IMG/VR virus record: IMGVR_UViG_3300031951_000234
Coordinates: 1-51,591 of that record
Length of the DNA stretch: 51,591 nt
Source of the DNA: a virus
Lineage: Duplodnaviria > Caudoviricetes
Direction: 5' to 3' (one strand)
Position numbers and translations under genes: made by a program. Below the pieces are notes generated by a model that was given only the letters and a program-made list of their open reading frames with translations, ran no database searches and had not been told where the DNA came from. This document shows, in pieces, positions 5,043 to 44,834 of the stretch. Each line of letters begins with the position of its first letter. The stretch's first letter is position 1.

Positions 5043-5046
5043 GACA

Positions 5047-30521: not shown

Positions 30522-30775
30522 GCATCAAGGACGACCTCGCCGTAGCCAACCCCGACGCCCTCCTGGCAGACGGCCTTGAGGACGCCCTCGTCGGCTACAC
30601 GATCAACACGCACATGCCGCACGTCGCTGTCTACGACGCTGCGAAGTGCGTCGAGGTGCTGATGAAGCGCGACGGTATGACGCACGAAGAGGCCCAGGAG
30701 TATCTGGAGTTCAACACCTACTGCTGCTACGTCGGCCCGAACGGGCCGATCTACATCAACACGTCGGCTGGTTAG
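30518..30775 (+). CDS. Conserved phage hypothetical protein
   Basis: ADGLEDALVG..AVYD..KC...L...GMT.EEA.EYLEFN...YVG...P family pattern. Confidence 0.7.
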   Translation: MSIKDDLAVANPDALLADGLEDALVGYTINTHMPHVAVYDAAKCVEVLMKRDGMTHEEAQEYLEFNTYCCYVGPNGPIYINTSAG

Positions 30776-30833
30776 TTGGCCGGCGGCGCGTTGCCGTCCG
30801 GCAAAGTGGTTTCCATTGTCGAAGGAGTGAGAC

Positions 30834-31763
30834 ATGAATCGCGCAGTGCTTGCGAAAGGATCGTCTGCCGAGCGTTGGGAAGCGGAGAGCGACATCGAGA
30901 GCCTGGCCGCCGAGGGCCACGCCGCCACGTCGCGCATGTACCAGAAGGTTCGCGCCTACATCGTCCACGTCACGCCGGTGCTGGCAGAACTGATGCTGGA
31001 GCAGAACGTCAGAAACAGGCGTGTGTCCGAACGTCATATCACGGTCTTGTCGCAGATCATGGCATCGCGTGACATGAGGCTCAACGGCGAGACGATCATC
31101 TTCTCGTCGGACGGCCGGCTCCTCGACGGGCAGCACAGGCTGCTGGCGTGCGTGAAGTCCGGGGTCGCCTTCGACACGATGGTCGTGTTCGGCATCGATT
31201 CCGACGCCTTCGACACGATCGACACCGGCTCGACGCGCAGCACCGGCGACATCCTTGGGATCAATGGGATCGCGAGTGCGAACAAAGTGGCGAGCGCGGT
31301 TCAGGCTCTGCTTGCATTCGTTGACAACGGCGGGTTCCTGACCGGGTCGTGTGCGACCAACCATGTGCGGAAGGCAACGCCCGTGCTGGTGACCCGCGTG
31401 CTCGAAGCCCACCCAGGCATCTTCGACAGCATCAGCGCGATGGGCGGCCAGCGGCTCATGCGGGGGCAGCACGGCTACGCTCTGCACTACGTCTTCAGTC
31501 TGGTGGACAAGTCGCTGGCGTCTGATTTCTCCGACATCCTGGCGAACGGCTCCAGGGACATGGGCAGGCCGTTCTGCCGCCTGCGCGAGTCGCTGATCAC
31601 CTCGCCGCTCACAAACGAGACTCGCAGCGCGTACTCGGCCAAGGCGGTCTTGGCGTTCAACGCCGAGCGGGCCGGCGCGAGGCCGAAGATCCTGCGCGTC
31701 GGCGCGGATTGGCCGCGGGTTGACGGCCTCGACTTCGATGCCCTTGAGCGGTCGATGAAGTAG
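30834..31763 (+). CDS. ParB-N-like domain protein
   Basis: N.RNR, NGETI, G.LLDGQHRL.A, DTIDTG..RS. Confidence 0.7.
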   Translation: MNRAVLAKGSSAERWEAESDIESLAAEGHAATSRMYQKVRAYIVHVTPVLAELMLEQNVRNRRVSERHITVLSQIMASRDMRLNGETIIFSSDGRLLDGQHRLLACVKSGVAFDTMVVFGIDSDAFDTIDTGSTRSTGDILGINGIASANKVASAVQALLAFVDNGGFLTGSCATNHVRKATPVLVTRVLEAHPGIFDSISAMGGQRLMRGQHGYALHYVFSLVDKSLASDFSDILANGSRDMGRPFCRLRESLITSPLTNETRSAYSAKAVLAFNAERAGARPKILRVGADWPRVDGLDFDALERSMK

Positions 31764-31768
31764 AAACA

Positions 31769-31854
31769 CGCCCGATAGTTTGGAGCCGGCGGCAGCCACC
31801 GGACACGGAAAAACGCACCTCTAGGTGAAACCCCGTTCGACTCGGGTAGGGCGG
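31769..31854 (+). ncRNA. tRNA-like RNA with expanded D-loop and truncated anticodon arm
   Basis: Acceptor CGCCCGA/TAGGGCG, T8A9, D stem GTTT/AAAC, hairpin CACC-TCTA-GGTG, T arm CCCG-TTCGACT-CGGG. Confidence 0.5.
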
Positions 31855-31862
31855 CTTGAGCG

Positions 31863-32114
31863 ATGAAAACGTATCTTCAAGAACTGCGCGGTCAGGTTCG
31901 CGGCAACGCGAGGCTGCGGCGGCGGCTCGACCGCCTGAAGGCCAGGGTGCAGTGGCTTGAGGAGTGGATCGGGGCGATGGTCATCCACGCCGACAAACTG
32001 GGCTACGGCGACGACCAGATAGTGAAGAATGCGGCCAGGGAGATCGGATGGAGCCGCCTGCCGCCGGAAGATGTCGAGCGGATCAAGGCCGTCATCAGAG
32101 GGATGATGATGTGA
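31863..32114 (+). CDS. Hypothetical protein
   Basis: Coupled operon ORF. Confidence 0.55.
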   Translation: MKTYLQELRGQVRGNARLRRRLDRLKARVQWLEEWIGAMVIHADKLGYGDDQIVKNAAREIGWSRLPPEDVERIKAVIRGMMM

Positions 32115-32335
32115 TGACAGAAACCAACATCCTCATGCGCCTGGTAGCCATGCAGCAGACCCTGCGTAGCGTCGTCGAGTCGTGCAAGGCCACGGCGGCC
32201 GTCTGTGACGCCGATGGGGCCAAGGGGCTGGCGATGGCGACCCTCATGGTCGGAGAGTCGATCGCGACGTTCGCGAAGGCGCTGAACGATTACGTCCTCA
32301 AGGAGTACGAAGATGAAAGTGACGATGCGGTTTGA
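32114..32335 (+). CDS. Hypothetical protein
   Basis: ATG at 32114 coupled to previous stop. Confidence 0.55.
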   Translation: MTETNILMRLVAMQQTLRSVVESCKATAAVCDADGAKGLAMATLMVGESIATFAKALNDYVLKEYEDESDDAV

Positions 32336-32531
32336 TCTGCCCGAGGAGGACGACGAGCACAAGGCGGCACTCCACGGCCAGGACTACAAAAACGTGCTGG
32401 AGAGCATCGACCACTACCTGCGCGGCCAGATGAAGCACGGGGGGTTAGGTGAGGCAGAGTACGCAGCCTTCGAGGACATCCGCGGGAAACTGCACCACTT
32501 TCTTGATGAATACGGCGTCGATATCTATTGA
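32313..32531 (+). CDS. Conserved phage hypothetical protein
   Basis: MK.T..F.LPEE..E...A..G motif; RBS AAGGAG. Confidence 0.65.
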   Translation: MKVTMRFDLPEEDDEHKAALHGQDYKNVLESIDHYLRGQMKHGGLGEAEYAAFEDIRGKLHHFLDEYGVDIY

Positions 32532-32556
32532 CCGCCAGACTACAGGCCACCACAAT
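32528..32556 (+). promoter_or_regulatory. Putative sigma70 promoter
   Basis: TTGACC-17-CACAAT upstream of AAGGAGG RBS. Confidence 0.5.
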
Positions 32557-32583
32557 ACGCCACCCACCCACAAGGAGGCTCCC

Positions 32584-32877
32584 ATGCGTTCGATTCTGCT
32601 GGCTCTCTCGATCCTGCTCTGCGGCACCGCCGCCCAGGCCCAGACGACGACCGTGACGATCACGACCACTGCCCAGGACGACGCCGACCACATGGCCCGC
32701 ACCGGCGTGTTTGGTCACCGTGGCCGGCAGGGCCGGTGCCGCGAGGGCATCGGCTTCTCGACGGTGTCGGCCGACGACGCCGTCCGTCGCTGCTGCTTCT
32801 ACGGCCAACTGCGGCCCCGCGAGATCGGTGTCGCCAGGGGCCGTCGCGGGTTCTACGCGGTCATTCGCTACTGGTGA
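32584..32877 (+). CDS. Secreted small protein, minimal CAP/SCP-like
   Basis: Signal peptide ending AQA; AQ..A.HMA..G..GH, EGIG, CC, IGVA.G..G.YA. Confidence 0.6.
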   Translation: MRSILLALSILLCGTAAQAQTTTVTITTTAQDDADHMARTGVFGHRGRQGRCREGIGFSTVSADDAVRRCCFYGQLRPREIGVARGRRGFYAVIRYW

Positions 32878-32881
32878 GCAC

Positions 32882-33112
32882 ATGGATCGCGAAGCCGAGA
32901 AGTTCGTGAACGCTGTGTTTCATTTTCTGGCGGCGATCCTGATCGGAGTCGTGTCTCTGCTGGCGGCGTCGTTCATTGTTCAGTTGGCCTGGAACTGGTC
33001 GATGCCGCACCTCTTCGCACTGCCGGATGCGTCGTATCGCAACGCATTCGGCCTGACGCTGTTCGCGTGGGCAGCGCGTCTTGGTTCCGTCAGCACTTCC
33101 AAGGAGGGTTGA
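32882..33112 (+). CDS. Two-TM membrane protein
   Basis: Hydrophobic helices; WNW.MP.LF.LP...Y..AFGL motif. Confidence 0.65.
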   Translation: MDREAEKFVNAVFHFLAAILIGVVSLLAASFIVQLAWNWSMPHLFALPDASYRNAFGLTLFAWAARLGSVSTSKEG

Positions 33113-33113
33113 T

Positions 33114-33455
33114 ATGGCTCGCATGAGTTTTGACGTGGCCGAACTGCACAGGCTGTGGTACAGCAGCATGACCAACGCGGAGTTGTGCTACACGCTTGGC
33201 GTGTCGCGAGGCAGCCTTGATGTTCTCCGGGTTCGCTACAAGTTGGATCGTCGGCCGTTCGAGAGGAACAACAAGAAGGCCGAGCCGGAGTCGCCTACGA
33301 TCGAGGAGATCGAGGCCCGCGCCGCCGAGGTCAGGGCCAGGTGGTCGGACGAGGAGCATCTTCGTCGCCTCTGCTGCGCCGGCCGCCGCGAGTGGTCGCT
33401 GCCGGCCTACGCCTTCCATCGTCGCGATCACGCCTTCTCGGAGGCCAGTCACTAG
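33114..33455 (+). CDS. HTH-like protein with PT.EEI..RAAEVRA.WS.EE motif
   Basis: Paralogous motif in 40384-40689. Confidence 0.6.
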   Translation: MARMSFDVAELHRLWYSSMTNAELCYTLGVSRGSLDVLRVRYKLDRRPFERNNKKAEPESPTIEEIEARAAEVRARWSDEEHLRRLCCAGRREWSLPAYAFHRRDHAFSEASH

Positions 33456-33457
33456 CC

Positions 33458-33745
33458 GTGCGCCGTCCCTCGGAGCGATCAATCGTCGCCAAGGGAATGG
33501 CAGAGGCGCGAAGACTGGGCTTCTTCGTCATCAAGATCCACGGCAATCAGTACCAGATGGCTGGGATACCGGACGTGCTGTGCATCAGGGACGGCCGCGC
33601 CCACTGGATTGAGTTCAAGCGTCCTGGCGAGGAACCGACGAGGCTTCAGGTGCATCGGATGCGGCAACTTGAGGGCGTCGGGTGCAGGACGACCGTCGCC
33701 TGCTCTGTGAGCGACGTGCGAACCTTCCTTGAGGGCGTGGCATGA
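33458..33745 (+). CDS. VRR-NUC domain nuclease
   Basis: E..I, GIPD, IEFKRPG....LQ motifs. Confidence 0.85.
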   Translation: MRRPSERSIVAKGMAEARRLGFFVIKIHGNQYQMAGIPDVLCIRDGRAHWIEFKRPGEEPTRLQVHRMRQLEGVGCRTTVACSVSDVRTFLEGVA

Positions 33746-34854
33746 TCCGCTGCGGCGAGCCACAGATCGGCGAGGCCGAGATCGCAGCCGTCACCGACGT
33801 GCTGCGGGCGGGGAACCTCACCCGCGGCGAGGAGTGCGAGCGGTTCGAGCGGGCGCTGGCCGAGCAGTTGAACGTCCGCGGCGTGCTGGCCGTCTCAAGC
33901 GGCACGGCGGCCCTGCACCTGGCCCTGCTGGCCGTCGGCGTCCAGCCCGGCGACGAGGTGATCATCCCGGCGACGACGTTCGTCGCCACGGCGAACGCGG
34001 TGCTCTACTGCCGCGCGAAGCCGGTGGTCGTGGACGTTGACAGCACGACGTGGACGATCGACGTGGGCCAGGCCATTCGGGCGATCACGAAGAAGACCAG
34101 GGCGATCGTCCCGGTGCATCTCTACGGCGTTCCGGCCGACGTGGGCGGCCTGCTGCTCGTCTGCGACGACCACTACGCCCGCACGGGCCGCCGGATTGCC
34201 ATCGTCGAGGATGCCGCCGAGGCGATTGGTGCGATGCACATGGGCCGAGAGGTCGGCGCCATCGGCGATGCGGCGGCCCTCTCGTTCTACGGCTCGAAGA
34301 CGATCACGACCGGAGAGGGCGGCGCTGTCATCTGGCACGACGGCCGCGTCGGTCTGCGGGCCTGGCATCTCCACGGCCAGGCGCAGTCCGCGACGAAGCG
34401 CTACTGGCACGAAGCGCTTGGATACAACTACCGCATGACGGAGATGCAGGCGGCCCTCGGCCGCGTGCAGTTGGAACGGCTCGAAGTGTTCCTCGAACAC
34501 CGCCGCCAGGTGTTCGCCTGGTACGACGAGATGCTTCCGCAGACGTTCAAGCGACAGGGCGTCGTCGAGAGCGACCGGCACGGCTGCTGGGCCTACGCCG
34601 TGGTCAAGGAGTACAGCGGCGAGATGAACGCGCAGAAGACGGCACTCGCGCTGCTGGAGGCCGGCATCGAGACGCGGCCGATCTTCTACCCGCTGTCGCG
34701 GTTCCCGCACTTGGCCGGAACCAGCAGCCGCGACCACTACGTCGCGCACAGACTGAACAAGCATGGCCTGGTGCTGCCAACGCACTGCGGCCTGACCCGA
34801 GAGGACGTTGAGAAGGTATGCCAAGAGTTAAGAAAAGCCGCGTGCTGTTCGTAG
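33742..34854 (+). CDS. DegT/DnrJ/EryC1/StrS PLP sugar aminotransferase (perosamine synthase-like)
   Basis: SSGTAALHLAL, PVHLYG, EDAAEA, SFYGSKTITTGEGG, GYNYRM. Confidence 0.93.
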   Translation: MIRCGEPQIGEAEIAAVTDVLRAGNLTRGEECERFERALAEQLNVRGVLAVSSGTAALHLALLAVGVQPGDEVIIPATTFVATANAVLYCRAKPVVVDVDSTTWTIDVGQAIRAITKKTRAIVPVHLYGVPADVGGLLLVCDDHYARTGRRIAIVEDAAEAIGAMHMGREVGAIGDAAALSFYGSKTITTGEGGAVIWHDGRVGLRAWHLHGQAQSATKRYWHEALGYNYRMTEMQAALGRVQLERLEVFLEHRRQVFAWYDEMLPQTFKRQGVVESDRHGCWAYAVVKEYSGEMNAQKTALALLEAGIETRPIFYPLSRFPHLAGTSSRDHYVAHRLNKHGLVLPTHCGLTREDVEKVCQELRKAACCS

Positions 34855-35690
34855 GCGGCGGCCGCCGCGTCGGGCTGGCGAGGCTGTTCATCGAGCGCGG
34901 CGCGGCGGTGTACGCCTACGAGTCGAGCATCGACCAGCCCATAGCCGACGTGGCGAAGGAGGTGCTCGTCGGGCTGGACTTCGATGACCCCCAATGTGGG
35001 GAAGATATTTCTGCGTTCGTGGAACGCAGAAATATCACCCACATCGTCCCGCTAATGGACGAGGCGACGGTGGTCTGCGGCGGCCTTCCTGGGTGCATCG
35101 GCCCGCCGGCCGACGTGGCGATGCTCTGCCACGACAAACTTCACTACGCCAATTGGATGAAGGAGCATCATCCAGACCTGTATCCGACGCCGTCGATGCT
35201 CCGGTATCCGAAGTTTGCGAAGCCCCGGTTCGGCCGCAGCGCGCGGGGGACGAAGATCCTGAACCGTCCAGAGACGATCGAGATGAGTTCGGCCTGGGTG
35301 ATACAGGACTACCTCGAAGGCGACGAGGTGTCGGTGGACGTGTTCCTCCGCGGCGGCGAGTGCCTGGGCGGCGTGGCCCGCAGCCGCGACCGCGTCGAGG
35401 GCGGGGAGGTGGTTGAATCCAGGGTACTCCCTGCCGAGCAGGGAGTACCGTTGATCCTCGACGCCGCCGCCGTCGCCACCGACCTTGGCATCGTCGGCCC
35501 GGCCAACGTGCAGTTCAGGGGCGGGAAGATCATGGAGGTCAACTGCCGCTTCGGAGGCGGGTGCGTGCTCTCCGTCGCCGCCGGCTTCGACATGGTCGCG
35601 CTGGCCTTGGGCCAGAAGACCAACGGGCCGCCGTGGACGGTGACGCACGGCATGACGATGCGTCGGTATCACGCGGAGAGTTTTCGATGA
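34818..35690 (+). CDS. ATP-grasp protein (CPS-like, polysaccharide-cluster type)
   Basis: GGGRRV, CHDK, KPRFG.SARG, IQDYLEG.EVSVD, EVNCRFGGG. Confidence 0.85.
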   Translation: MPRVKKSRVLFVGGGRRVGLARLFIERGAAVYAYESSIDQPIADVAKEVLVGLDFDDPQCGEDISAFVERRNITHIVPLMDEATVVCGGLPGCIGPPADVAMLCHDKLHYANWMKEHHPDLYPTPSMLRYPKFAKPRFGRSARGTKILNRPETIEMSSAWVIQDYLEGDEVSVDVFLRGGECLGGVARSRDRVEGGEVVESRVLPAEQGVPLILDAAAVATDLGIVGPANVQFRGGKIMEVNCRFGGGCVLSVAAGFDMVALALGQKTNGPPWTVTHGMTMRRYHAESFR

Positions 35691-35947
35691 GCGACGACAT
35701 CGTCAACAGGCTGCGTGACCGGGCCTACAGCGGCAAAGTTCCAGACAGCCTGTCCGATGAGGCGGCGGCCGAGATCGAGCGGCTGCGGTCGCTGACGCGG
35801 TTTCAGGATGGCGTCATTCGCAGCGGCGACGTGGCGTGCCTGACACAAGCGGAGCGTGAGGCGTTGGAGGTGGCGTCAGTATGGGTGAACCCAGAGAGGC
35901 ACGCCACCCTGCGCGGCCTGCTGGAGCGGCTGGGAGGCCACCAATGA
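35687..35947 (+). CDS. Hypothetical protein, LT.AEREA...ATLRGLLERL family
   Basis: MSDDIVNRLR..EAAAEIERLR; shared C-terminus with next gene. Confidence 0.65.
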   Translation: MSDDIVNRLRDRAYSGKVPDSLSDEAAAEIERLRSLTRFQDGVIRSGDVACLTQAEREALEVASVWVNPERHATLRGLLERLGGHQ

Positions 35948-36273
35948 CTGACCGCGACACGTTCGCCGCTGCGGCGCTGACGGGGCTTCTCGTCCACGCC
36001 AATGACAGCATTGACGAGGAGACTTTGGACACCCCAAGCGACATCGCGTACACGGCCTACCAGATGGCCGACGCCATGCTCCGCGAGCGCGACCGCACAA
36101 CTCATACGCCTGTAACGGAACCTATGCTCAAAGAAAAACGGACAGAGGGTTCTGCCGTCCTGACCGACGCGGAGCGGGAGGCGGTGCATCAGGCAGCGAT
36201 CCGGGTGGAAGCGTTGTGCCAGCGCGGATCGAAACACATGGCCGCCACCCTGCGCGGCCTGCTGGAGCGGCTG
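35902..36273 (+). repeat. 31-bp exact direct repeat (35902-35932 and 36243-36273)
   Basis: CGCCACCCTGCGCGGCCTGCTGGAGCGGCTG occurs twice, at the 3' ends of adjacent genes. Confidence 0.9.
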
Positions 36274-36291
36274 TCGCCGCCAGCGACATAA
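35944..36291 (+). CDS. Hypothetical protein, LT.AEREA...ATLRGLLERL family
   Basis: RDTFAAAALTGLL..AY.MADAML.ER; shared C-terminus. Confidence 0.65.
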   Translation: MTDRDTFAAAALTGLLVHANDSIDEETLDTPSDIAYTAYQMADAMLRERDRTTHTPVTEPMLKEKRTEGSAVLTDAEREAVHQAAIRVEALCQRGSKHMAATLRGLLERLSPPAT

Positions 36292-36454
36292 GGGACGAAC
36301 GTGTCGCAAAAACGACGAAGCGACGACAAAACACTACGCCAGCCCGCACCGGCTCCGCGCCCTACGGAGTGTTTTCGGGACGGCTGGCAGCCCCTAGGCG
36401 ACACGCAGCCCGACAACGGCTTGGCGACGATGGGACGGGGGCAGTGGTTTTTAC

Positions 36455-36544
36455 GCATAACACGCGAGATCAACAGCCGCGAACAAAGGAGGCGGCACAC
36501 ATGAACGATACGAATGAGCGGTCTGTTGCATCGGATGGTTCGCT
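36455..36544 (-). mobile_element. Integron attC site 1
   Basis: Minus strand: R'' AGCGAAC-5nt-L'' GATGCAAC-AG[A]CCGC...GCGG-CT-L' GTTGATC-6nt-R' GTTATGC; two extrahelical bases at canonical positions. Confidence 0.88.
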
Positions 36545-36920
36545 GGCGAACGCATTGCGGCCAGCGGTGTGGGCGATTCTTAGCGAAAATGGGCAGTATC
36601 GACTCCCCGAGATTGTTGGCGGAGCGAAGGTGTGCAAGTTTTATGGCAATGACAGATACGTTCCGCTGTACGCCGAAGAGACGTTGAACCCTGTGTTGAG
36701 GATTGCGAATGCGTGCGGGAAGTGGATTCAGGTGAGCGAGCGGCTGCCCGAAGACGGCACATGGTGCTGGGTCGATTGGGACGGCCCAGGCGAGCCGTTC
36801 CCAGCGATGCGATGCAGTAGGTCGGCTGGCGGGTGGACGAACACCGACTGCTGGGAAGACTTCGACAGAGAGGTCACGCGCTGGATGCCGCTCCCTGCAC
36901 CACCAATAGACGCCAAGTAG
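36501..36920 (+). CDS. Cassette gene A: DUF551-like protein
   Basis: WIQVSERLPE ... VTRWMPLPAPP; RBS AAGGAGG and ATG lie inside attC1. Confidence 0.8.
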   Translation: MNDTNERSVASDGSLANALRPAVWAILSENGQYRLPEIVGGAKVCKFYGNDRYVPLYAEETLNPVLRIANACGKWIQVSERLPEDGTWCWVDWDGPGEPFPAMRCSRSAGGWTNTDCWEDFDREVTRWMPLPAPPIDAK

Positions 36921-36922
36921 CC

Positions 36923-37013
36923 AGCGAACGCCCGCGATCACCAGCGGCGAACACAGGAGCATGAACATGACACAGGAATCGAATAAGCCGTCTGGTGCAT
37001 CCGGTGGTTATGA
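36923..37013 (-). mobile_element. Integron attC site 2
   Basis: Minus: TCATAAC-CACCG-GATGCACC-AG[A]CGGC...GCCG-CT-GGTGATC-GCGGGC-GTTCGCT. Confidence 0.88.
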
Positions 37014-37188
37014 GCGCGGTCGGATTTGCCCTGTCCCGCCAGATGACCCCGTTGGCCCGTTTGTCGCAGCAATGATCCTTATCCCGCTCGTTGTCTGCTC
37101 GCTGGTTTTTGCCGCGACGGCATTCGGCAACCTGATGGCCTACGGACAGTTTTGCACGCCGCAGCACGGCGTCGTTGAGAAGCCATAA
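36961..37188 (+). CDS. Cassette gene B: small membrane protein
   Basis: RBS AGGAG and ATG inside attC2; hydrophobic segment; stop TAA inside the attC3 core box. Confidence 0.7.
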   Translation: MNMTQESNKPSGASGGYERGRICPVPPDDPVGPFVAAMILIPLVVCSLVFAATAFGNLMAYGQFCTPQHGVVEKP

Positions 37189-37270
37189 CACGCAGGATCA
37201 GCGGCTCGCGACCGCTGACGAAACTACACCGCAGACGGAATCGCGAGTCCGCTGCATCCGCTGGTTCGCA
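37183..37270 (-). mobile_element. Integron attC site 3
   Basis: Minus: TGCGAAC-CAGCG-GATGCAGC-GG[A]CTCGCGA...TCGCGAG-CC-GCTGATC-CTGCGT-GTTATGG. Confidence 0.88.
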
Positions 37271-37273
37271 CAG

Positions 37274-37636
37274 ATGCCATGCAACTCAGACCATCTTGAG
37301 GCGACCCACCTTGAGGCCGAGATGAGCAAGGTCGCTTGCCTGCTGGACGAACTTGACGGAAAGAAGCGAATAAATCGCGACCACTGGCGCGGCTACCACC
37401 CTCGCGTCTACAGTCAGCGGGTGAACGCCGACGAAATGACGGCCGAACTATGCTCGCGCCTTCAGGGCGTGAACGTTTCACAGTGCAGCCTTGAGATGCA
37501 GATTTGGTGGCGCGACCATCAAGAGGCAGACAAGAGGCGAGCCGAGAAAGCGATCAAGAAGGCCAAGACCGAGAAGCAGAAAAAAGCGGCACTCGCGAAA
37601 CTGACTCAGCATGAGCGGAAACTGTTGGGGCTTTGA
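37274..37636 (+). CDS. Cassette gene C: hypothetical protein
   Basis: MPCNSDHL..LC..L..WWRDHQEAD..ALAKLT..ERKLLGL; ATG 3 nt after attC3. Confidence 0.75.
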   Translation: MPCNSDHLEATHLEAEMSKVACLLDELDGKKRINRDHWRGYHPRVYSQRVNADEMTAELCSRLQGVNVSQCSLEMQIWWRDHQEADKRRAEKAIKKAKTEKQKKAALAKLTQHERKLLGL

Positions 37637-37642
37637 TGGGAT

Positions 37643-37685
37643 TGCGAACCAGAATTAGTCCGCCAGTTCGCAGCCTAATTCGGAC
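37643..37685 (-). mobile_element. attI-like / secondary cassette insertion site
   Basis: Core GTTCGCA (minus) exactly complementary to attC3 R''; not followed by an attC fold; nested short inverted repeats. Confidence 0.55.
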
Positions 37686-37736
37686 GAAGGTGCGGCTTTC
37701 GGCCGCAAGAACGATGCGACGGCGGGGAAACAGGAA

Positions 37737-37880
37737 ATGACCACCATCCGCGAGTGGCTGATCGACCTGGCGTTTCTGCGCATCGGCATCGTGCCGCTCG
37801 TGGGCGTAGTGTTGTGTGTCGGCATGATTGTCGGCCTGTGCATCGCAGCCGTGCGGTGCCAGCCGCCGGAGGATTTATGA
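37737..37880 (+). CDS. Small membrane protein (47 aa)
   Basis: MTTIREWLIDLAFLRIGIVPLVGVVLCVGMIVGLC; RBS CAGGA. Confidence 0.55.
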   Translation: MTTIREWLIDLAFLRIGIVPLVGVVLCVGMIVGLCIAAVRCQPPEDL

Positions 37881-38020
37881 GCACCCCGCTGATCCTCATC
37901 GTCGGCGTCGTCTACCTAGCGGTGGCCGTCGATCAGTTCCGCAAAGGCGACACCGGCATGGCGATCGCATGGTTCGGCTACGCCCTGGCAAACGTGGGCC
38001 TCGCTATGGTGGCAAAATGA
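37877..38020 (+). CDS. Small membrane protein (47 aa)
   Basis: LI..VG.VYL.V..DQF.KG..GM...WFGYALANVGL. Confidence 0.65.
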   Translation: MSTPLILIVGVVYLAVAVDQFRKGDTGMAIAWFGYALANVGLAMVAK

Positions 38021-38319
38021 AGACCGCGGTCGTGGATCTCGACGGCGTCCTGGCCGAGGAGCGGCCGGCGTTCGAGCACGCGCTGGCCGAGCCGCTGCCG
38101 GGGGCCGCCGAAGGCTTGAGGACGCTCAAGAGGCTGGGCTACCACGTCGTGATTCACACCGCCCGAGGATGGGGCGAGTACGCGATCACGACGCACTGGC
38201 TACAGGCGCACAGTATGGAGTATGATCTGCTGATCTGTGGCAAGCCGATCGCCGACATCGTCATCGACGACCGTGCCATTCGATTCCGGGGCTGGGAGGC
38301 TCTCACTGATGCCATCTGA
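38017..38319 (+). CDS. HAD-superfamily phosphatase (capsule-biosynthesis type)
   Basis: DLDGVL, HTARG, GKP.AD..IDDRA. Confidence 0.85.
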   Translation: MKTAVVDLDGVLAEERPAFEHALAEPLPGAAEGLRTLKRLGYHVVIHTARGWGEYAITTHWLQAHSMEYDLLICGKPIADIVIDDRAIRFRGWEALTDAI

Positions 38320-38848
38320 CACGGTTATTCGCCTGCGCCATCTGGTACACACATTCCTCCATCGCGACGTGCTGCCGTCGATCACGCAGGGCGATGCCGT
38401 GCTGGAGATCGGGCCGATGCACGCTGGGTCATGCCCGGTGCCAGAAGCCTTCGTGGACACGAAGGCCGCGGTGCTGGCGGCCGGCGGCGGATACACGTCG
38501 TGCGACCCAGACCCGGCGGCCGGCGCGACGATCTGTGCCGACTTCTTGGAGCCAACTGCGTTCTACGGCAACGAGCAGTTCGATCACATCGTCGCCTGCG
38601 AGGTGTTCGAGCACGTCCCGCGGGTGTGGGACGCGCCGGCCGTCCTGGCCGGGCTGCTCAAGCCCGGCGGCGTGCTCTGGCTCTCGACGCCGTTCATGTT
38701 TGAGAAGCACGGGCCGGCGCCTGACTGCTGGCGGTTCACCGACGACGGGCTGCGGGCGTTGTTCGGCAGGCACTTCTTCTTGGACGTGTGGGCCAGCGAC
38801 GGCCACGCCGAGCCGCTGCACTACTGTGCGAGGGCGGTGAAGCGATGA
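38309..38848 (+). CDS. Class I SAM-dependent methyltransferase
   Basis: VLEIGP, FD.IVACEVFEHV, LKPGG.L.LSTPF, DCWRFT. Confidence 0.88.
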   Translation: MPSDTVIRLRHLVHTFLHRDVLPSITQGDAVLEIGPMHAGSCPVPEAFVDTKAAVLAAGGGYTSCDPDPAAGATICADFLEPTAFYGNEQFDHIVACEVFEHVPRVWDAPAVLAGLLKPGGVLWLSTPFMFEKHGPAPDCWRFTDDGLRALFGRHFFLDVWASDGHAEPLHYCARAVKR

Positions 38849-39567
38849 GCATCATCTGCTGTTCCATGTGGTACGCCGACGCCGGAAAGCACATCGTCGA
38901 TCGCGTCCTGCACCTGTTCGGCAAGTCGGGCGTCGATCGGTGGATGTTCTCCGTCAGGCCGTCGAAGGACTGGACGCAGCACTTCCTGTCGCAACTGGCC
39001 GCTATGGCCGGCAAGGGCTGCGATGTGCTGCTTGAGGACTGGACGCAGCCGGAGGCCAGGATCGAGAGGCTGTCGCTGGCCGGTGACAACCTCCTGCAAG
39101 AGGCTGCCGAGACGGACTGCAAATATGTGCTGTGGCATGAGTCGGACTTGTTCTCACCGGACGACATCGTTGATCGCCTGAAGGCGGTCGATGGCGCAGC
39201 CGTTGGTGGCTGGCCGGTGCTGTCGCACTGCCCGTCCGCGCCGCAACTGGGCATCCACACGCGAAAGCGACTGACGCTAACCGAGTCGATGTTCTACGAC
39301 ACCTGGGGGTATCGGAAGGACGGCGTCCGCTTTGGCAACAAGCCACCACATCACGACTGCCACCTCCCAGGCGAGCCGTACCAGTTGGATAGCGTCGGCA
39401 GCGTGGTGCTGCTGCGAGCCGACTATCTGCGGCGCGGCGCACGCATGAACGGCAACGGCCTGGTCGGCCTCTGTGACAGCATCCGCGGCATGGGTGGCAC
39501 CGTGTGGTGCGACCCCCGAGTGCCGGTCGTGCAACCCCTTGAACTCTGGACTATGAACGATGACTAG
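38845..39567 (+). CDS. GT-A fold glycosyltransferase-like protein (Anp1/GT62-like)
   Basis: YVLWHESD, FYDTWGYR, LDSVGSVVL motifs. Confidence 0.6.
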   Translation: MSIICCSMWYADAGKHIVDRVLHLFGKSGVDRWMFSVRPSKDWTQHFLSQLAAMAGKGCDVLLEDWTQPEARIERLSLAGDNLLQEAAETDCKYVLWHESDLFSPDDIVDRLKAVDGAAVGGWPVLSHCPSAPQLGIHTRKRLTLTESMFYDTWGYRKDGVRFGNKPPHHDCHLPGEPYQLDSVGSVVLLRADYLRRGARMNGNGLVGLCDSIRGMGGTVWCDPRVPVVQPLELWTMNDD

Positions 39568-40387
39568 ACGACCTGAAATGGTGTGGCCCGTCGATCCCGA
39601 GTACCATGCGGATTACATCCGCATGGTCGAGCAGGGCCGCGCGGTGGCTGGCGACCTGACGGTCAGCATCGTCGCCATCGCCAGGAACGCGATGCCGCAC
39701 ATCACGAACACGCTGGCCCTGATCGACGAACTGCGGGCCGGCTGGAAGGCGTCGAACGTCTACATCTACGAGAACGATTCGGTGGACGGCACCGCCCAGG
39801 TGCTCGACGAGCACCTGGGCGTGGTCGTCGAGCACGATAGCCTGGGCGGCGAGGACGCCCGTGGCTTCGAGCCGGAGCGGACGATCAGGCTGGCCCACTG
39901 CCGCAACCGCTGCCTGGACAGGGGAGTCTCCAGAGGCTCCTCGGTGACGATCGTCCTCGACACAGACCCGCCTGGCGGCTTCAGCGTGGACGGCGTGTTC
40001 AATAGCGTTGCGTGGTTGGCCCAGAAGCGGAGCGAGCCGTCGGCGATGAAGGCCGGCGGGATGGCCTCCTACTCGCTGTTCAGGAGGCCCGACGGCGTGG
40101 CGCACTACGACGCTTGGGCGGCCCGCCCGCCGTCGTGGTGGCGGGATCGTAGGAACGAGATCGGCTTCCTCTGGTTCTCGTCGTTTCTGCCGCCCGTCGG
40201 CTCACCGCCCTGCCCGATGAACTCCGCGTTCGGCGGCCTGGGCGTCTACTGGACGGAGGCGATCCTGTCAGGCCGGTACGAGGGTGGCGACTGCGAGCAC
40301 GTCGCCCTGCATCGCAGCATGGCGAAGGCCGGCTGGCAGATGTTCCTGAACCCCGGCTGCCGCTATATCTCCGTCTGGGAAGAATGA
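39560..40387 (+). CDS. GT-A glycosyltransferase (GT69/CAP59-like)
   Basis: IARN, YENDSVDGT, LAHCRN, LDTD, YDAWA, SAFGGLGVY, DCEHV. Confidence 0.75.
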   Translation: MTRRPEMVWPVDPEYHADYIRMVEQGRAVAGDLTVSIVAIARNAMPHITNTLALIDELRAGWKASNVYIYENDSVDGTAQVLDEHLGVVVEHDSLGGEDARGFEPERTIRLAHCRNRCLDRGVSRGSSVTIVLDTDPPGGFSVDGVFNSVAWLAQKRSEPSAMKAGGMASYSLFRRPDGVAHYDAWAARPPSWWRDRRNEIGFLWFSSFLPPVGSPPCPMNSAFGGLGVYWTEAILSGRYEGGDCEHVALHRSMAKAGWQMFLNPGCRYISVWEE

Positions 40388-40689
40388 CCCCTCCATCGCG
40401 CCGGCGGATGACGCCGGAGGAACTTGCCGCATCCCTGGAGGGGGCAAACAGGAAGCGCAGGCTACGCCGCCGCTGGGCGTCCGACGCCAGCCTGGAGGAG
40501 TTGGCTGCGGAGTTCGGCGTCGTCGAGCCGGAGTTGCTCCGCATGGCCGAGGAACTTGGCCTCGGCCCGCGCGAGGCCGAGTGCTACCTCCCGAGCCAGG
40601 AAGAGATCCGCCTGGCCTGTTCCAGGCTGCGGGCTGGGTGGTCGGATGCAGAGCGTGAATCCCGCCTTTCGGGTAGGGGCGGCTGCTAG
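40384..40689 (+). CDS. HTH-like protein with PS.EEI....LRA.WSD.E motif
   Basis: Paralog of 33114-33455. Confidence 0.6.
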   Translation: MTPPSRRRMTPEELAASLEGANRKRRLRRRWASDASLEELAAEFGVVEPELLRMAEELGLGPREAECYLPSQEEIRLACSRLRAGWSDAERESRLSGRGGC

Positions 40690-40719
40690 AATGAGATATG
40701 CGACAGGACACGACAACTA

Positions 40720-40917
40720 ATGGCTGTCTCCGAGGTTCGACTGGTCGTCGCGCCACGCGAGGCGCGGCTGGTGCTCGTCCGAGACAACGAGGTTGTCGAG
40801 GAGGAACTCTGGAGGTTCGAGCGGGCGATGGGCCGCTCCGAAGCCGCGCAGGTCGTGAAAGCGGTCTTCGACTCGACATACGACTACATCAACTACGCGG
40901 TCAACGGTGACGATTGA
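40720..40917 (+). CDS. Hypothetical protein
   Basis: Operon-coupled ORF. Confidence 0.55.
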   Translation: MAVSEVRLVVAPREARLVLVRDNEVVEEELWRFERAMGRSEAAQVVKAVFDSTYDYINYAVNGDD

Positions 40918-41101
40918 AGATCACATCAACGACGTAAAGGAGTTGCAAAGCCGCTACGGCGACGACACGCCACCACTCATGTCGCGTGTGCCGGAGCCGC
41001 CGCCGAGTCACTGGGGGAAATTGACGAGCCAGAGCAGGACGCTCTCGCCGCAATACATCAAGTTCTTGAACAAGCACAAGGAGGTGCAGAATGGAAAATG
41101 A
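40907..41101 (+). CDS. Hypothetical protein
   Basis: Operon-coupled ORF. Confidence 0.5.
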   Translation: MTIEDHINDVKELQSRYGDDTPPLMSRVPEPPPSHWGKLTSQSRTLSPQYIKFLNKHKEVQNGK

Positions 41102-41369
41102 GGAAGACCTCTACGGCGCGGGGATGCCGATCCTTGAGAAGTTGAAACTTCTCGCCGAGTGGGCGCCGCTGATCGGCCGCCTCCAGGCCGTGATGGATGC
41201 CTCGACACCCGAGGAGCGTGCGCTGGCGATCGTCAAGACGCTCCAGTGGGCTGCGGGGAAGTCGGCGACCGAGATCGACGACGAGGCGCTGTTCCATCTG
41301 GAGGCCGTGCTCAAGTCGGAGGAGGGCAAGGCGTTCTTCGGCTGGGTCGTCGATAAGGTGCGCGGATGA
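41091..41369 (+). CDS. Hypothetical protein
   Basis: RBS AAGGAGG; 92 aa. Confidence 0.6.
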   Translation: MENEEDLYGAGMPILEKLKLLAEWAPLIGRLQAVMDASTPEERALAIVKTLQWAAGKSATEIDDEALFHLEAVLKSEEGKAFFGWVVDKVRG

Positions 41370-41623
41370 CGACGTTTCAGGCGGTCATGGCCGCCGCGGC
41401 CGTCATCACCGCAGCCGTCCCGCAGATCAAGCAGGCCGCCGGCTGGCTGCTGCGGCTGCCGACACCGACGCCGCCCGACCAGGCCGCTCCGTCGTACAGA
41501 GATGCCATCGCCAACCTGGCTGCCGTCAGGCTGCGGCTCAAGGCGACGGGGAAACTCGATGACGACCAGAAGCAGGCGATCGACGTGCTCACGCTTGCCT
41601 TGGTGGACGGGAGCGACGAATGA
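41366..41623 (+). CDS. Small membrane-anchored protein
   Basis: Hydrophobic N-terminus, Pro linker. Confidence 0.55.
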   Translation: MTTFQAVMAAAAVITAAVPQIKQAAGWLLRLPTPTPPDQAAPSYRDAIANLAAVRLRLKATGKLDDDQKQAIDVLTLALVDGSDE

Positions 41624-42102
41624 AGATCCCTGCGAGGTATGCCGTGGCAGCGGTGCTGTTGTTTTTCGCGTGGAAGGGTGCAGACCTGTCGCTGCCGTGG
41701 CCGCCGCCGCCGCACGACGAGGTCGCAGCCCCACGGCCCGAAAAGCCCCTGCTGGAGTGGGCCGAGCCGATGAGGGCCGTCCTGCCGAAGATGCTCCCGG
41801 CCGACCGCCGCTACATGGCTCGCTTCTACGACGCCTGCGCGTACATCATCCTCAAGGACGGCGACCGCCAAGTGCCGATCATCGGCACCACCGACCAGTT
41901 CGTGACATTCCACGGCGGCAGCCTACGCCTGGCGATCGAGAAGGCGAAGGTCGGGCAGTACCCCGGCCTCGCCGAGGCCATCGACCAGACGTTTGTGAAC
42001 GCGATGGGGGCCGACCCGAAGAAACTCGACCCCGACCCCCGCCGCCGGCTGGTTGCCGCCTGCGGCGTTCTCTCCTGGGTCTTCGGCATCGGCCATGAGT
42101 GA
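41620..42102 (+). CDS. Membrane-anchored / exported protein
   Basis: N-terminal signal/TM followed by Pro-rich linker. Confidence 0.6.
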   Translation: MKIPARYAVAAVLLFFAWKGADLSLPWPPPPHDEVAAPRPEKPLLEWAEPMRAVLPKMLPADRRYMARFYDACAYIILKDGDRQVPIIGTTDQFVTFHGGSLRLAIEKAKVGQYPGLAEAIDQTFVNAMGADPKKLDPDPRRRLVAACGVLSWVFGIGHE

Positions 42103-43093
42103 CTTCAGCCCACTCGACGCCTACTCCAGCGGCCTGATGGGCTGCCGGCCCAGCCCTAGGTCGGACGAGGAGTTCGCGGATCTGATTCTCCGTCGCGGCG
42201 GCGACCCCGACGGCGGCAGTGTGGCGCACCAATGGGAGTTCGCCGACGCTGGGAAGGGGAAGTTGACGCTGCTCTTCCCTCGCGTCATGGAGGTCTTCCC
42301 TGACTGCTTCCCAGGCCCGACGCAACTCCTCGGCGACTGTGTTGCGCGAGCGGCCTCAAACTGCCTGCTCACGTCGCTGGGCATGGAGATCGCCGACGGC
42401 AAGCCGGACGAGGTGACGGGCCACGTCGAGGGTGCGCCGGAACTGCCCGAGGCCGGCGTGAAGGCGGGGGTCGTCGCGGCCGAGAGTCTGTGGGCGTGGA
42501 GGGGGTACAACAGCGACGGCTGGATCTGCTCCGAGGCTGCCAAGGTGGCATCGAAGCAGGGGTTCCTGATCCGCAAGCCGTACCCGGAACTGAAGATCGA
42601 CCTGACGAAGTACACCGAGGACACGATCCGCCTGGGCGGCGCGAAGGTGCCGGGCGAGAAGTGGCTGGCCGAGTCGAGCAAGCACGTCGCCAGGACGGCG
42701 ACCTTCCTCAAAGGCCGCGAACAGGTGCGCGACTTCTTGGCGGCCGGGTATGGAGTTTTCCAGTGCTCGGCTCTTGGCTTCGAGCGGACGAGGAACGAGG
42801 ACGGCGTCAGCCGGCAGACGACCGTCTGGCACCACGCCCAACTCTGGCATGGCTATGACGACCGGCCGGAGACGATCCAGAAGTACGGTCAGGCTCTCGT
42901 CCTTTGGCAGAACTCCTGGGCGAGGTGGAACGACGGGCCGCGCCGCGTGCGCGGCACCGACATCGACATCCCGCATGGAGCCTACTGGGCCTTGGCGAGC
43001 ACGATCGACAAGTGCAACTGCATCGCCCTGTCCAGCGTGGCCGGCTGGCCGAAGCGGCAGCACACCACCTACGGAGCCGCTGGGAATGTGTGA
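42095..43093 (+). CDS. Papain-like (C1) cysteine peptidase
   Basis: Q..GDCV (oxyanion Q, catalytic C), WHHA...GYD (H), QNSW (N). Confidence 0.8.
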   Translation: MSDFSPLDAYSSGLMGCRPSPRSDEEFADLILRRGGDPDGGSVAHQWEFADAGKGKLTLLFPRVMEVFPDCFPGPTQLLGDCVARAASNCLLTSLGMEIADGKPDEVTGHVEGAPELPEAGVKAGVVAAESLWAWRGYNSDGWICSEAAKVASKQGFLIRKPYPELKIDLTKYTEDTIRLGGAKVPGEKWLAESSKHVARTATFLKGREQVRDFLAAGYGVFQCSALGFERTRNEDGVSRQTTVWHHAQLWHGYDDRPETIQKYGQALVLWQNSWARWNDGPRRVRGTDIDIPHGAYWALASTIDKCNCIALSSVAGWPKRQHTTYGAAGNV

Positions 43094-43097
43094 GCGG

Positions 43098-44504: not shown

Positions 44505-44507
44505 GGT

Positions 44508-44795: not shown

Positions 44796-44834
44796 CGGAT
44801 CGTCCTCCTTGTGGCACTTGTTGTGGTCTGTAGT

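What the first reader, a model, noticed from the sequence alone, without database searches (positions are those of the whole stretch)
36481..37013. attC loops carry the ribosome-binding site, start codon and N-terminus of the cassette protein
Seen: attC1's variable loop holds AAGGAGG (36486-92) and ATG 36501; attC2's loop holds AGGAG and ATG 36961. Both ORFs translate through the right arm of the palindrome in the same frame, giving stereotyped N-termini (..ERSVASDGS.., ..KPSGASGGY..). Gene B's TAA lies in the next core box (CCATAAC). The attC2 loop also has two ACACAGGA motifs resembling CsrA sites. Inference: the recombination site doubles as a portable translation-initiation module, and its mRNA hairpin could gate expression. 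An 'S.AS.G(S/Y)' leader peptide would be a protein-level marker for finding such arrays in other phages.
Basis: partly seen in the sequence, partly recalled or inferred. Interest (0 to 1): 0.8.

Follow-up and report, generated by a model that had tools for sequence, protein, structure and literature searches.

The report
Phage cassettes starting inside attC hairpins
This uncultured phage carries three small genes packaged like integron gene cassettes but written backwards, so the folded recombination site sits in front of each gene and, for two of them, holds its ribosome-binding site, start codon and first 10-13 residues, a layout shared by many other phages.

Summary
Three ~90-nt elements lie on the + strand (36455-36544, 36923-37013, 37183-37270). 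Each has integron attC anatomy: AAC, a 6-nt spacer, covarying arms with two bulged bases (T, then C 6 bp on), a loop, and GTT. The loops of el1 and el2 hold a Shine-Dalgarno site and an ATG, and the ORF reads through the 3' arm in one frame. Two corrections: gene B more likely starts at ATG 36967 than 36961, and the "CsrA-like" second ACACAGGA is not conserved.

The family is widespread in IMG/VR phage contigs. Of 120 copies, 72 have a loop SD+ATG with an ORF of at least 50 codons, against 0 of 120 on the other strand.

A covariance model of the phage copies also matches three bacterial cassette arrays, one beside a true IntI. There it lies antisense to the cassette ORFs. The phage genes therefore sit on the attC "bottom" strand, in inverted polarity.

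Junctions between related contexts fall mostly at the AAC box, so hairpin and gene move together. A minority fall at GTT, giving in-frame leader swaps. The record has no IntI, so this is a CALIN-like array.

"Portable translation module" is partly supported. "Hairpin gates expression" is not supported by folds.

This scan has noted the same layout on other phage DNA before. I found no publication of it.

The parts
36455..36544 (+). attC-like element 1. AAC 36459-61; left arm GATCAACAGCCG 36468-79; loop with SD 36486-92 and ATG 36501; right arm 36519-32 with bulged T 36522 and C 36529; GTT 36538-40.
   Evidence: Model R1 scores 81.1 bits, but this copy is part of the training alignment.
36501..36920 (+). 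Gene A, 139 aa. Its first 13 residues are encoded by the element's loop, arm and box. DUF551 domain at residues 74-135.
   Evidence: Pfam PF04448 E 9.6e-9; phrog_924 E 2.1e-12; translation.
36923..37013 (+). attC-like element 2. AAC 36927-29; SD AGGAG 36955-59; ATG 36961 and 36967; bulged T 36991 and C 36998; GTT 37007-09. Its left box CCAGCGAAC is the reverse complement of el1's right box GTTCGCTGG.
   Evidence: R1 scores 77.3 bits (training member).
36967..37188 (+). Gene B, 73 aa (75 aa if it starts at 36961), a small hydrophobic protein. Its stop TAA lies inside the next AAC box.
   Evidence: Three relatives at 39-41% identity, each behind a hairpin with a loop start. No Pfam or PHROG hit.
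37183..37270 (+). attC-like element 3, a near-perfect hairpin with no start codon in its loop. AAC 37187-89; bulged T 37248 and C 37255; GTT 37264-66.
   Evidence: Fold z-scores -4.75 (DNA) and -4.72 (RNA). R1 scores 70.1 bits (training member).
37274..37636 (+). Gene C, 120 aa. It starts 8 nt after el3's GTT box.
   Evidence: phrog_11759 E 1.9e-30, protein residues 1-119 on profile positions 1-131.
37643..37652 (+). Terminal box TGCGAACCAG, the exact reverse complement of el3's right box CTGGTTCGCA. It marks the end of cassette C. No hairpin follows it.
   Evidence: There is no R1 hit here with filters off.

Best explanation
The region 36459-37649 is a short, integrase-less array of three integron-type gene cassettes in a phage, in mirror polarity. 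The sense (+) strand is the strand that in bacterial integrons is the recombinogenic bottom strand of attC.

Each cassette therefore reads: attC hairpin, then one small gene, then a stop codon at or inside the next AAC box. Because the hairpin lies 5' of its gene, its variable loop has been taken over as the translation start region. In el1 and el2 it holds the SD and ATG. The first 10-13 codons are the 3' arm (with its two bulged bases), the spacer and the GTT box.

Shown here:
- the anatomy and its covariation;
- the box-to-next-box complementarity;
- the inverted polarity relative to three bacterial arrays;
- the spread of the layout in phage contigs;
- junctions mostly at AA|C, with a minority at G|TT.

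Inferred:
- an integron-type integrase supplied in trans (most likely by the host) cuts the folded + strand at AA|C, so hairpin and gene move as one unit;
- rarer exchanges at the GTT box swap leaders in frame;
- translation really starts at the loop ATG;
- the leader peptide is a passenger of DNA structure rather than a functional signal.
For: 1. Anatomy. All three copies read AAC, 6 nt, GAT+arm, loop, arm+ATC, 5 nt, GTT, with T and C bulges 6 bp apart on the 3' arm. An attC 1 kb from a bona fide intI (TIGR02249 474 bits against a cut-off of 265) has the same geometry on the same relative strand.

2. Covariation. In 110 distinct copies the arm helix is 97.4% paired. Four of its 13 pairs change on both sides. 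Pair 24-68, for example, reads CG 38, AU 31, GC 27, UA 13, other 1. No shuffle of 500 reaches the observed score, and sliding the partner gives 23-45% paired against 89.7%.

3. Cassette logic. The right box of copy n matches the left box of copy n+1 at 5 or more of 6 positions in 24 of 38 consecutive pairs. The same test gives 19 of 119 for a copy's own boxes and 9% for random pairs. In the window the matches are 9 nt, 6 nt and 10 nt.

4. Polarity. Model R1 hits lie antisense to the cassette ORFs in three bacterial arrays (L253 beside IntI, L228, L218). In phage loci, 72 of 120 copies carry a loop SD+ATG with an ORF of at least 50 codons on the model strand, and 43 more have an ORF starting within 45 nt after GTT. 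The opposite strand gives 0 of 120. PHROG hits: sense ORFs 3 of 10, antisense ORFs 0 of 10. Genes A and C have Pfam or PHROG hits on the + strand.

5. Junctions. Of 25 downstream-body clusters seen twice or more, 19 keep one hairpin type under two or more upstream contexts, and 8 carry two or more hairpin types. Of 16 upstream clusters, 15 are followed by two or more hairpin types, and 2 keep the hairpin but change body. Alignments show identity starting exactly at AAC, or exactly at TGGTT.

6. Compactness. The stop codon lies 1-10 nt before the next AAC in 76 of 85 cassettes.

7. The leader varies with the DNA pairing. The V/A/G residue tracks the complementary base in the non-coding 5' arm (pair 19-74).
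Against: - No IntI is in the record: TIGR02249 gives 0 matches in a record estimated 91% complete. No recombination has been shown for these sites.
- By folding energy alone el1 and el2 do not beat shuffles (z between -0.83 and +0.05). The structure rests on covariation, not thermodynamics.
- Alignment A2 came from a pattern that fixed 21 positions (18 in the scan, plus the AAC filter), so only the free columns count as evidence.
- R1 was trained on the window's own copies.
- Junction counts come from related sequences and are not independent events.
- About a quarter of informative junctions lie at the GTT box, which the simple bottom-strand model does not predict.
- Open-frame coverage hardly separates the strands in this G+C-rich DNA: at least 0.9 of the segment is open in 81 of 113 sense and 45 of 113 antisense segments.
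- The second bulge is C, where the textbook attC has G (recalled).
- No expression data exist for this phage.
Confidence: 0.7

Rival explanations
1. The repeats are linkers for homologous or microhomology-driven shuffling, like the PeSL cassettes of T4-type phages. No site-specific integrase is involved, and the attC resemblance is convergent or vestigial.
For: - No IntI in the record.
- The right-box junctions share 12-14 nt of identical sequence (TGCATCnnnTGGTT), enough for short-homology recombination.
- One pair (L052 vs L080) differs in the loop but not the arms, which looks like conversion.
- Hairpin types are few (27) and shared by many bodies.
Against: - Most junctions lie at the AAC box, where only 3-6 nt are shared.
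- Homologous exchange does not need conserved bulges, a spacer or covarying arms.
- It does not explain why the right box of one copy complements the left box of the next.
- The region 35600-38000 has no sigma-70-like promoter match, where PeSLs carry a promoter (consensus scan only).
Confidence: 0.12
2. The phage's own short Xer-like tyrosine recombinase (20228-21142, minus strand) is the cassette recombinase, rather than a host IntI. That would make this a self-contained phage system.
For: - 22 of 30 element-bearing records of at least 25 kb hold exactly one tyrosine recombinase, and 10 of 10 of those at least 90% complete do.
- All 22 are relatives of the window's enzyme, full-length in 21, at 23-69% identity.
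- In 5 of 9 records that hold both a close relative of the recombinase and elements, the elements lie within about 1.1 kb downstream of the recombinase gene.
- Its N-terminal SAM-like domain resembles that of Xer and IntI enzymes.
Against: - Only 9 of 26 records with a close relative of the recombinase hold elements, and one complete 72-kb record has none.
- It scores only 45-52 bits on the Xer models and gives no match to TIGR02249.
- One integrase per temperate phage is expected anyway, and the region next to int is a usual place for accessory genes.
- In the window it lies 15 kb from the array.
Confidence: 0.1
3. The hairpins act mainly at the RNA level, as a translational operator, a processing site or a stabiliser placed before each gene. 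The recombination-site look is secondary.
For: - The sense strand equals the hairpin strand, so every mRNA carries the hairpin.
- The SD and AUG sit in a loop of roughly the size of a ribosome-binding site.
- el3 folds strongly as RNA (z -4.72).
Against: - An RNA role does not explain the box complementarity across whole genes or the junctions at AAC.
- The same geometry occurs antisense to the genes in bacterial arrays beside IntI.
- No Rfam family matches.
- 43 of 120 copies have no loop start at all.
- A dual role is not excluded.
Confidence: 0.05
4. The loop ATGs are incidental, and translation starts downstream of the hairpin.
For: - Gene A has an in-frame GTG at 36568.
- Gene C and 43 of 120 family members do start after the hairpin.
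Against: - SD-like motifs at proper spacing occur before the loop ATG in 72 of 120 copies, against 0 of 120 on the other strand.
- The frame is kept in 69 of those 72.
- GTG 36568 has no SD and would cut the conserved P-[AV]-[AV]-W motif that follows the leader in many cassettes.
- Gene B relatives at about 40% identity keep a loop SD+ATG although the arms differ.
Confidence: 0.03

Closest known systems
Integron attC sites and gene cassettes. Features as given in Loot et al. 2017, PMC5371416 (passages read).
   Same: - Folded imperfect hairpin with extrahelical bases, an unpaired central spacer and a variable terminal loop.
- Only the AAC/GTT triplet is conserved.
- The length of 80-83 nt falls inside the 57-141 bp range.
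- In arrays, the variable part of one R box matches the next site.
   Different: - The genes lie on the bottom strand, so the attC is 5' of its gene and its loop holds the SD, the ATG and the N-terminus.
- There is no IntI, recognisable attI or Pc in cis.
- The carrier is a phage.
- The second bulge is C.
CALINs (clusters of attC sites lacking an integrase) in phage genomes: Qi, Rajabal, Ghaly, Tetu and Gillings 2023, PMC9892861 (abstract and section 3.4 read).
   Same: attC clusters without IntI in phages. They report methyltransferase cassettes, and one such cassette occurs in this family (L040).
   Different: - They report 17 CALINs in all, and describe those of two virulent phages as oriented as in typical bacterial arrays.
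- The parts I read say nothing of start codons in loops or of inverted polarity as a rule.
ORF-11 in attI1, a start region inside a recombination site: Hanau-Bercot et al., as reviewed in PMC8876359 (passages read).
   Same: An SD plus ATG inside an integron recombination site, in an ORF that overlaps the crossover point, helps to express the adjoining cassette.
   Different: It lies in the double-stranded attI, not in attC. It is one site per integron. It is a short coupling ORF rather than the gene's own N-terminus.
PeSL mobile regulatory cassettes of T4-type phages: PMC2839356 and PMC4122927 (search listing and start of the abstracts only).
   Same: Repeated stem-loop motifs with expression signals flank small accessory phage genes and mark shuffling junctions.
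   Different: PeSLs are promoter-terminator motifs thought to work by homologous exchange. They have no AAC/GTT boxes, bulges or box-to-next-box complementarity. No promoter consensus was found here.
Homogeneous attC families of sedentary chromosomal integrons such as VCRs (mentioned in PMC5371416), and toxin-antitoxin cassettes with their own promoters (PMC11023631, passages).
   Same: A few closely similar attC types serve many unrelated cassettes. Some bacterial cassettes carry their own expression signals.
   Different: In bacteria the expression signals are not inside the attC loop. That a minority of bacterial cassettes is inverted is my recollection, not something I read here.

Membership tests
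integron attC site | Inverse R boxes with the conserved AAC ... GTT triplet | tested here: met
   Present in all three window copies. In A2 these columns were fixed by the search pattern.
integron attC site | Imperfect inverted repeats (L arms) kept by compensatory change | tested here: met
   Helix 2 is 97.4% paired, 4 of its pairs change on both sides, and 0 of 500 shuffles reach the score.
integron attC site | Two extrahelical bases on one arm of the recombinogenic strand | tested here: met
   T and C lie 6 bp apart on the 3' arm in all three copies. The positions are invariant or nearly so in A2. An attC 1 kb from IntI has the same geometry. That the textbook pair is T and G is recalled.
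integron attC site | Unpaired central spacer between the R and L boxes | tested here: met
   6 nt on the 5' side against 5 nt on the 3' side, at most partly pairable.
integron attC site | Variable terminal loop; total length 57-141 bp (PMC5371416) | tested here: met
   The AAC-to-GTT span is 79-83 nt in 186 of 205 copies and 47-48 nt in 19 of 205.
integron attC site | In an array, the variable part of one R box complements the next site's box, not its own | tested here: met
   24 of 38 for the next site, 19 of 119 for a copy's own boxes, 9% for random pairs, all at 5 or more of 6 positions.
integron attC site | Cassette ORF on the top strand with the attC at its 3' end | tested here: not met
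   Bacterial arrays have ORFs antisense to model R1. Phage ORFs lie on the model strand and start in or just after the hairpin.
integron attC site | Recognised by the IntegronFinder or HattCI attC models | not testable with these tools
   Neither model is on hand. Rfam has no match.
integron attC site | Recombined by IntI as a folded bottom strand | not testable with these tools
   This needs a bench assay.
complete integron | An intI gene beside the array | tested here: not met
   TIGR02249 gives 0 matches in the record. The only tyrosine recombinase is Xer-like and lies 15 kb away.
complete integron | An attI site at the head of the array | tested here: inconclusive
   37643-37652 carries the matching box but no hairpin. 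attI has no sequence definition that I could test.
CALIN | At least two attC sites with no integrase nearby (minimum of two as stated in PMC9892861) | tested here: met
   Three sites within 0.8 kb and no IntI.
PeSL (T4-type) | An early promoter joined to the stem-loop | tested here: not met
   0 promoter-like sites in 35600-38000. This is a sigma-70 consensus scan only.

The most novel reading that the evidence does not exclude
Phages keep their own large pool of integron-type cassettes in mirror polarity. In this pool the attC hairpin is at once the recombination site, the ribosome-binding site and the coding sequence of a short N-terminal leader. Exchange at the AAC box moves whole genes together with their start signals. 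Exchange at the GTT box joins leaders to new bodies in frame. The inverted polarity would keep the phage pool and the bacterial pool mutually silent when cassettes cross between them. The enzyme could be a host IntI used in trans, or the phages' own short Xer-like recombinase.
Probability: 0.35. Interest if true: 0.8.

Novelty: new variant of a known kind. Interest (0 to 1): 0.6.

Why it matters
Integrons are treated as bacterial devices in which the attC follows a promoterless gene.

If these sites are active, three things follow:
- phages have a site-specific route to shuffle small accessory genes, here DUF551 proteins, small membrane proteins and, in a relative, a methyltransferase;
- each cassette brings its own start signals and so can be expressed wherever it lands;
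- a DNA structure constrains the first 10-13 residues of many unrelated proteins.

It also gives a simple search handle for such arrays: AAC-N6-GAT ... ATC-N5-GTT, or the leader S-x-[AP]-S-x-G-[SY].

Tried and rejected
- Close phage relatives: megablast of 30000-45000 against GenBank phages found nothing. The ATP-grasp gene upstream found no relative in viral contigs. A synteny test of occupied against empty site was therefore not possible.
- Rfam: no family reaches its gathering score in the window.
- Folding energy: el1 and el2 are not distinguishable from shuffles, so I did not use energy as evidence for them.
Most are single chance matches of odd length. Only 7 loci carry the full anatomy.
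- Open-frame coverage as a polarity test: too weak in this G+C-rich DNA.
- Clustering gene bodies at 60% identity collapsed everything into one cluster. I redid it at 70% and 75%.
- PDB sequence search with the recombinase: no match.
- Sequencing runs: no RNA holder is listed.
- Laying contigs of four DNA runs: many joints land on the element boxes, but with sides of 21-28 letters and at 90% likeness. The tool warns that such joints come from other organisms or repeats, so I do not count them as excision products. One 813-letter contig of run X8 fits 36459-36892 and then stops fitting at 36459, the first base of el1's AAC. I take this only as a hint.
- CsrA reading: rejected, because the second ACACAGGA is not conserved.
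- Region 36295-36450 as a decayed fourth element: no R1 hit with filters off, so I dropped it.
- L099:6935-7022 was left out of alignment A2 (110 of 111 references used) because it looked like a chance match.
- For some searches I used the first 10 of 37 candidate cassettes, in locus order.
- Supplementary files of Qi et al. 2023 were not seen. They may list phages of this family.
- Not-in-print statement: it rests on searches (listings), on the abstract and section 3.4 of PMC9892861, and on the passages of PMC8876359 returned by the term search.
Full report
WHAT IS THERE. The window is a whole IMG/VR virus record of 51,591 bp, estimated 91% complete. Between an amino-sugar gene pair (DegT aminotransferase and an ATP-grasp enzyme) and a methyltransferase gene lie several small genes. 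Three of them are each preceded by a ~90-nt element on the + strand.

Each element reads: xxxAAC, a 6-nt spacer, GAT plus a 5' arm, a loop, a 3' arm plus ATC, 5 nt, then GTTxxx. The 3' arm carries two unpaired bases, a T and, 6 bp further on, a C. The arms differ between copies but stay complementary: CAACAG/CTGTTG, CACCAG/CTGGTG, CAGCGG/CCGCTG. The arm pattern occurs 5 times in the window against 0.15 expected. Only these three copies have the full anatomy.

It is correct in all coordinates. AAGGAGG lies at 36486-92 and ATG at 36501. AGGAG lies at 36955-59 with ATG at 36961. Both ORFs pass the 3' arm in the same frame, and gene B's TAA lies inside CCATAAC.

Three refinements apply:
- In el2 a second in-frame ATG at 36967 lies 7 nt after the SD, while 36961 lies 1 nt after it. 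The closest relative has only the second.
- The second ACACAGGA is not conserved.
- el3 has no loop start. Gene C starts 8 nt after its GTT box and matches phrog_11759 from residue 1.

Gene A is a DUF551 protein. Gene B is a 73-75-aa hydrophobic protein without a family.

CASSETTE LOGIC. The right box of el1 (GTTCGCTGG) is the exact reverse complement of the left box of el2 (CCAGCGAAC). The right box of el2 (GTTATG) complements the left box of el3 (CATAAC). The right box of el3 (CTGGTTCGCA) complements TGCGAACCAG at 37643-52, after gene C. This is what a circular cassette intermediate leaves behind in an integron array. The passage read in PMC5371416 states it for attC sites in arrays.

THE FAMILY. 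Of these, 120 non-identical copies in 82 sources (81 loci plus the window) have the full anatomy. Many stand in arrays.

Alignment A2 holds 110 distinct copies. Its arm helix is 97.4% paired, and four pairs change on both sides. Pair 24-68, for example, reads CG 38, AU 31, GC 27, UA 13, other 1. No shuffle of 500 reaches the observed covariation, and slid partners pair in only 23-45% of cells. The pattern fixed 21 positions (18 in the scan, plus the AAC filter). The covarying columns and columns 69-74 of the 3' arm were free.

Across 38 consecutive pairs, the right box of one copy matches the left box of the next at 5 or more of 6 positions in 24. A copy's own boxes do so in 19 of 119, and random pairs in 9%.

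A covariance model (R1) finds 282 copies in 86 phage loci, some in arrays of more than a dozen. In the window it finds only the three; the next hit scores 14.3 bits. A structure-based detector of my own finds 205 copies in 89 sources (88 loci plus the window), never on both strands of one source. Their AAC-to-GTT spans are 79-83 nt (186 copies) or 47-48 nt (19 copies).

START CODONS IN LOOPS ARE THE RULE. Of the 120 copies:
- 72 have an SD-like motif and ATG in the loop with an ORF of at least 50 codons through the arm, 69 of them in the S-x-A-S-x-G frame;
- 43 have no loop start but an ORF starting within 45 nt after GTT, like el3;
- 5 have neither.

The same test on the opposite strand gives 0 of 120. 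The stop codon of the cassette gene lies 1-10 nt before the next AAC in 76 of 85 cassettes. Three layouts recur: TAAC, TGAGAAC and TAGCCACAGAAC. Gene B is an example of the first.

Relatives of gene B at 39-41% identity sit behind hairpins with other arms (GATGAATGG / CCATTCCATC). They keep a loop SD+ATG and the same GGTTATGAGCGCGG junction.

POLARITY. R1 also matches bacterial DNA. In G001 two matches lie 1 kb and 2 kb upstream of an intI gene that scores 474 bits on TIGR02249, whose cut-off is 265 bits. They lie on the intI coding strand. The cassette ORFs lie on the other strand and end at the sites. That is the canonical layout, in which R1's strand is the bottom strand.

The same holds in two further arrays: L228 with 12 hits and L218 with 8 hits, whose ORFs lie on the opposite strand and in most cassettes end close to the next site. 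The G001 site shows AAC, 6 nt, 3 bp, a C bulge opposite, 6 bp, a T bulge, the geometry of the window's copies.

In the phages the genes are on R1's strand. Homology supports that strand: DUF551 and phrog_11759 in the window, and 3 of 10 sense against 0 of 10 antisense ORFs with PHROG hits in other loci. Open-frame length does not discriminate well. The phage cassettes are therefore mirror images of bacterial ones. The attC lies 5' of the gene, and that is why its loop can hold the start.

WHERE EXCHANGES HAPPEN. I compared 192 copies with at least 90 nt of flank on each side.
- Among pairs that share one flank at 80% identity or more, 39 break at the AAC box: 21 share only the upstream flank, and 18 share the hairpin plus the downstream flank. 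Ten break at the GTT box, and the rest are ambiguous.
- By clusters, 19 of 25 repeated gene bodies keep one hairpin type under different upstream contexts, and 8 carry more than one hairpin type. Of 16 repeated upstream contexts, 15 are followed by different hairpins, and 2 keep the hairpin but change body.
- Alignments show identity starting at AAC, or exactly at TGGTT. In one case the same body, 99% identical, carries the leader MSDDTKRSVASDGS or MKDEAEQSIPSRGS.

At 88% identity there are 27 hairpin types for 134-158 bodies. The el1 type has 16 copies before 12 bodies.

The majority pattern fits cleavage of the folded + strand at AA|C, which is where IntI would cut a bottom strand. The minority pattern may reflect rare top-strand events or short-homology exchange. 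The passage gives a 10^3 preference for the bottom strand. This step is inference, and the counts are not independent events.

WHICH ENZYME. The record has no IntI. Its only tyrosine recombinase (20228-21142, minus strand) is a short Xer-like enzyme. It scores 45-52 bits on the Xer models and shows only N-terminal similarity to the G001 IntI.

Relatives of it occur in 22 of 30 element-bearing records of at least 25 kb. In some relatives they lie just upstream of the array. However, only 9 of 26 records with a close relative hold elements, and one complete record has none. I therefore rank a host IntI acting in trans first and the phage enzyme as a live alternative.

Bacterial copies with the same arm consensus occur in Burkholderiales and other beta-proteobacterial MAGs. 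The host of this phage is not established.

EXPRESSION IDEAS. In predicted RNA ensembles of 75 loop-start copies, the SD and AUG are mostly unpaired (0.71 and 0.63) and the arms are paired (0.07 and 0.20). If the hairpin forms in mRNA, it displays the start region rather than hiding it. "Gating" therefore has no support here, though it is not excluded. No promoter consensus lies in 35600-38000, so the cassettes are presumably read from an upstream phage promoter.

The leader residues follow the DNA pairing: V, A or G at the second position tracks the partner base in the non-coding arm. Where the right box is GTTAG the frame would hit TAG, and those copies use another frame or no loop start. 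The peptide is best seen as a passenger of the DNA structure.

COMPARISON WITH WHAT IS KNOWN.
- attC clusters without an integrase in phages are published (Qi et al. 2023; abstract and section 3.4 read). They report 17 CALINs in all. For two virulent phages they describe orientation as in typical bacterial arrays. Five of six tested phage sites were recombined by IntI1.
- A start region inside an integron recombination site is known for attI1 (ORF-11; passages), not for attC.
- PeSL cassettes of T4-type phages (listing only) are a functional analogue without attC anatomy.
- Searches listed no paper that describes inverted phage cassettes with starts in attC loops. Supplements were closed.
- Earlier notes of this scan describe the same layout on other phage DNA. 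I tested the claims on my own data and did not take them as support.

VERDICT. This is a small, typical member of a widespread phage family of mirror-polarity, attC-type cassettes whose hairpins double as translation start regions. It is a new variant of a known kind. It has not been shown to be active, and its recombinase is unknown.

Noticed in passing
window 35902-35932 and 36243-36273: An exact 31-nt direct repeat encodes the ..ATLRGLLERL tails of two adjacent small genes (35687-35947, 35944-36291) just upstream of the array. In other phages, genes that end ..LLERLG stop in the TGAGAAC box of a following hairpin. These two genes may therefore be former cassettes that have lost their hairpins.
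   Followed up: partly
window 37643-37690: After the terminal box TGCGAAC come overlapping inverted repeats (TGCGAAC/GTTCGCA, GAATTAG/CTAATTC, GTCCG/CGGAC) but no attC-like hairpin. This may be the original insertion site or an attI-like end of the array.
   Followed up: partly
L049 (about 19 model hits in 5 kb), L065, L058: Related phages hold much longer arrays. They include a short-loop form of the element, with an AAC-to-GTT span of 47-48 nt.
   Followed up: partly
L321, L322, L323, L324 (records G056, G043, G012, G041): In these relatives the cassette array begins about 0.2 to 1.1 kb downstream of the Xer-like recombinase gene, on the same strand, after one or two ..LLERL-type genes.
   Followed up: partly
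L040:3001-3636: This 211-aa cassette gene starts at a loop ATG and matches DNA methyltransferase PHROGs (phrog_24333, E 1.2e-7).
   Followed up: no
window 43325-43412 (minus strand): A weak full-length match to model R1 (14.3 bits, E 0.064). It is probably chance.
   Followed up: no
window 36444-36580 and 37129-37265: In four metagenome runs the summed contig depth over el1 and el3 is many times that of the flanks (for example 3373 and 4605 against about 115 in run X1). Many other genomes in those samples therefore share the hairpin sequences.
   Followed up: partly
L228 (contig binned as Candidatus Kuenenia), 1504-7465: 12 model hits lie on one strand of a 7.7-kb bacterial contig, with ORFs on the other strand. 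This is a canonical cassette array whose attC arms closely resemble the phage family's.
   Followed up: partly
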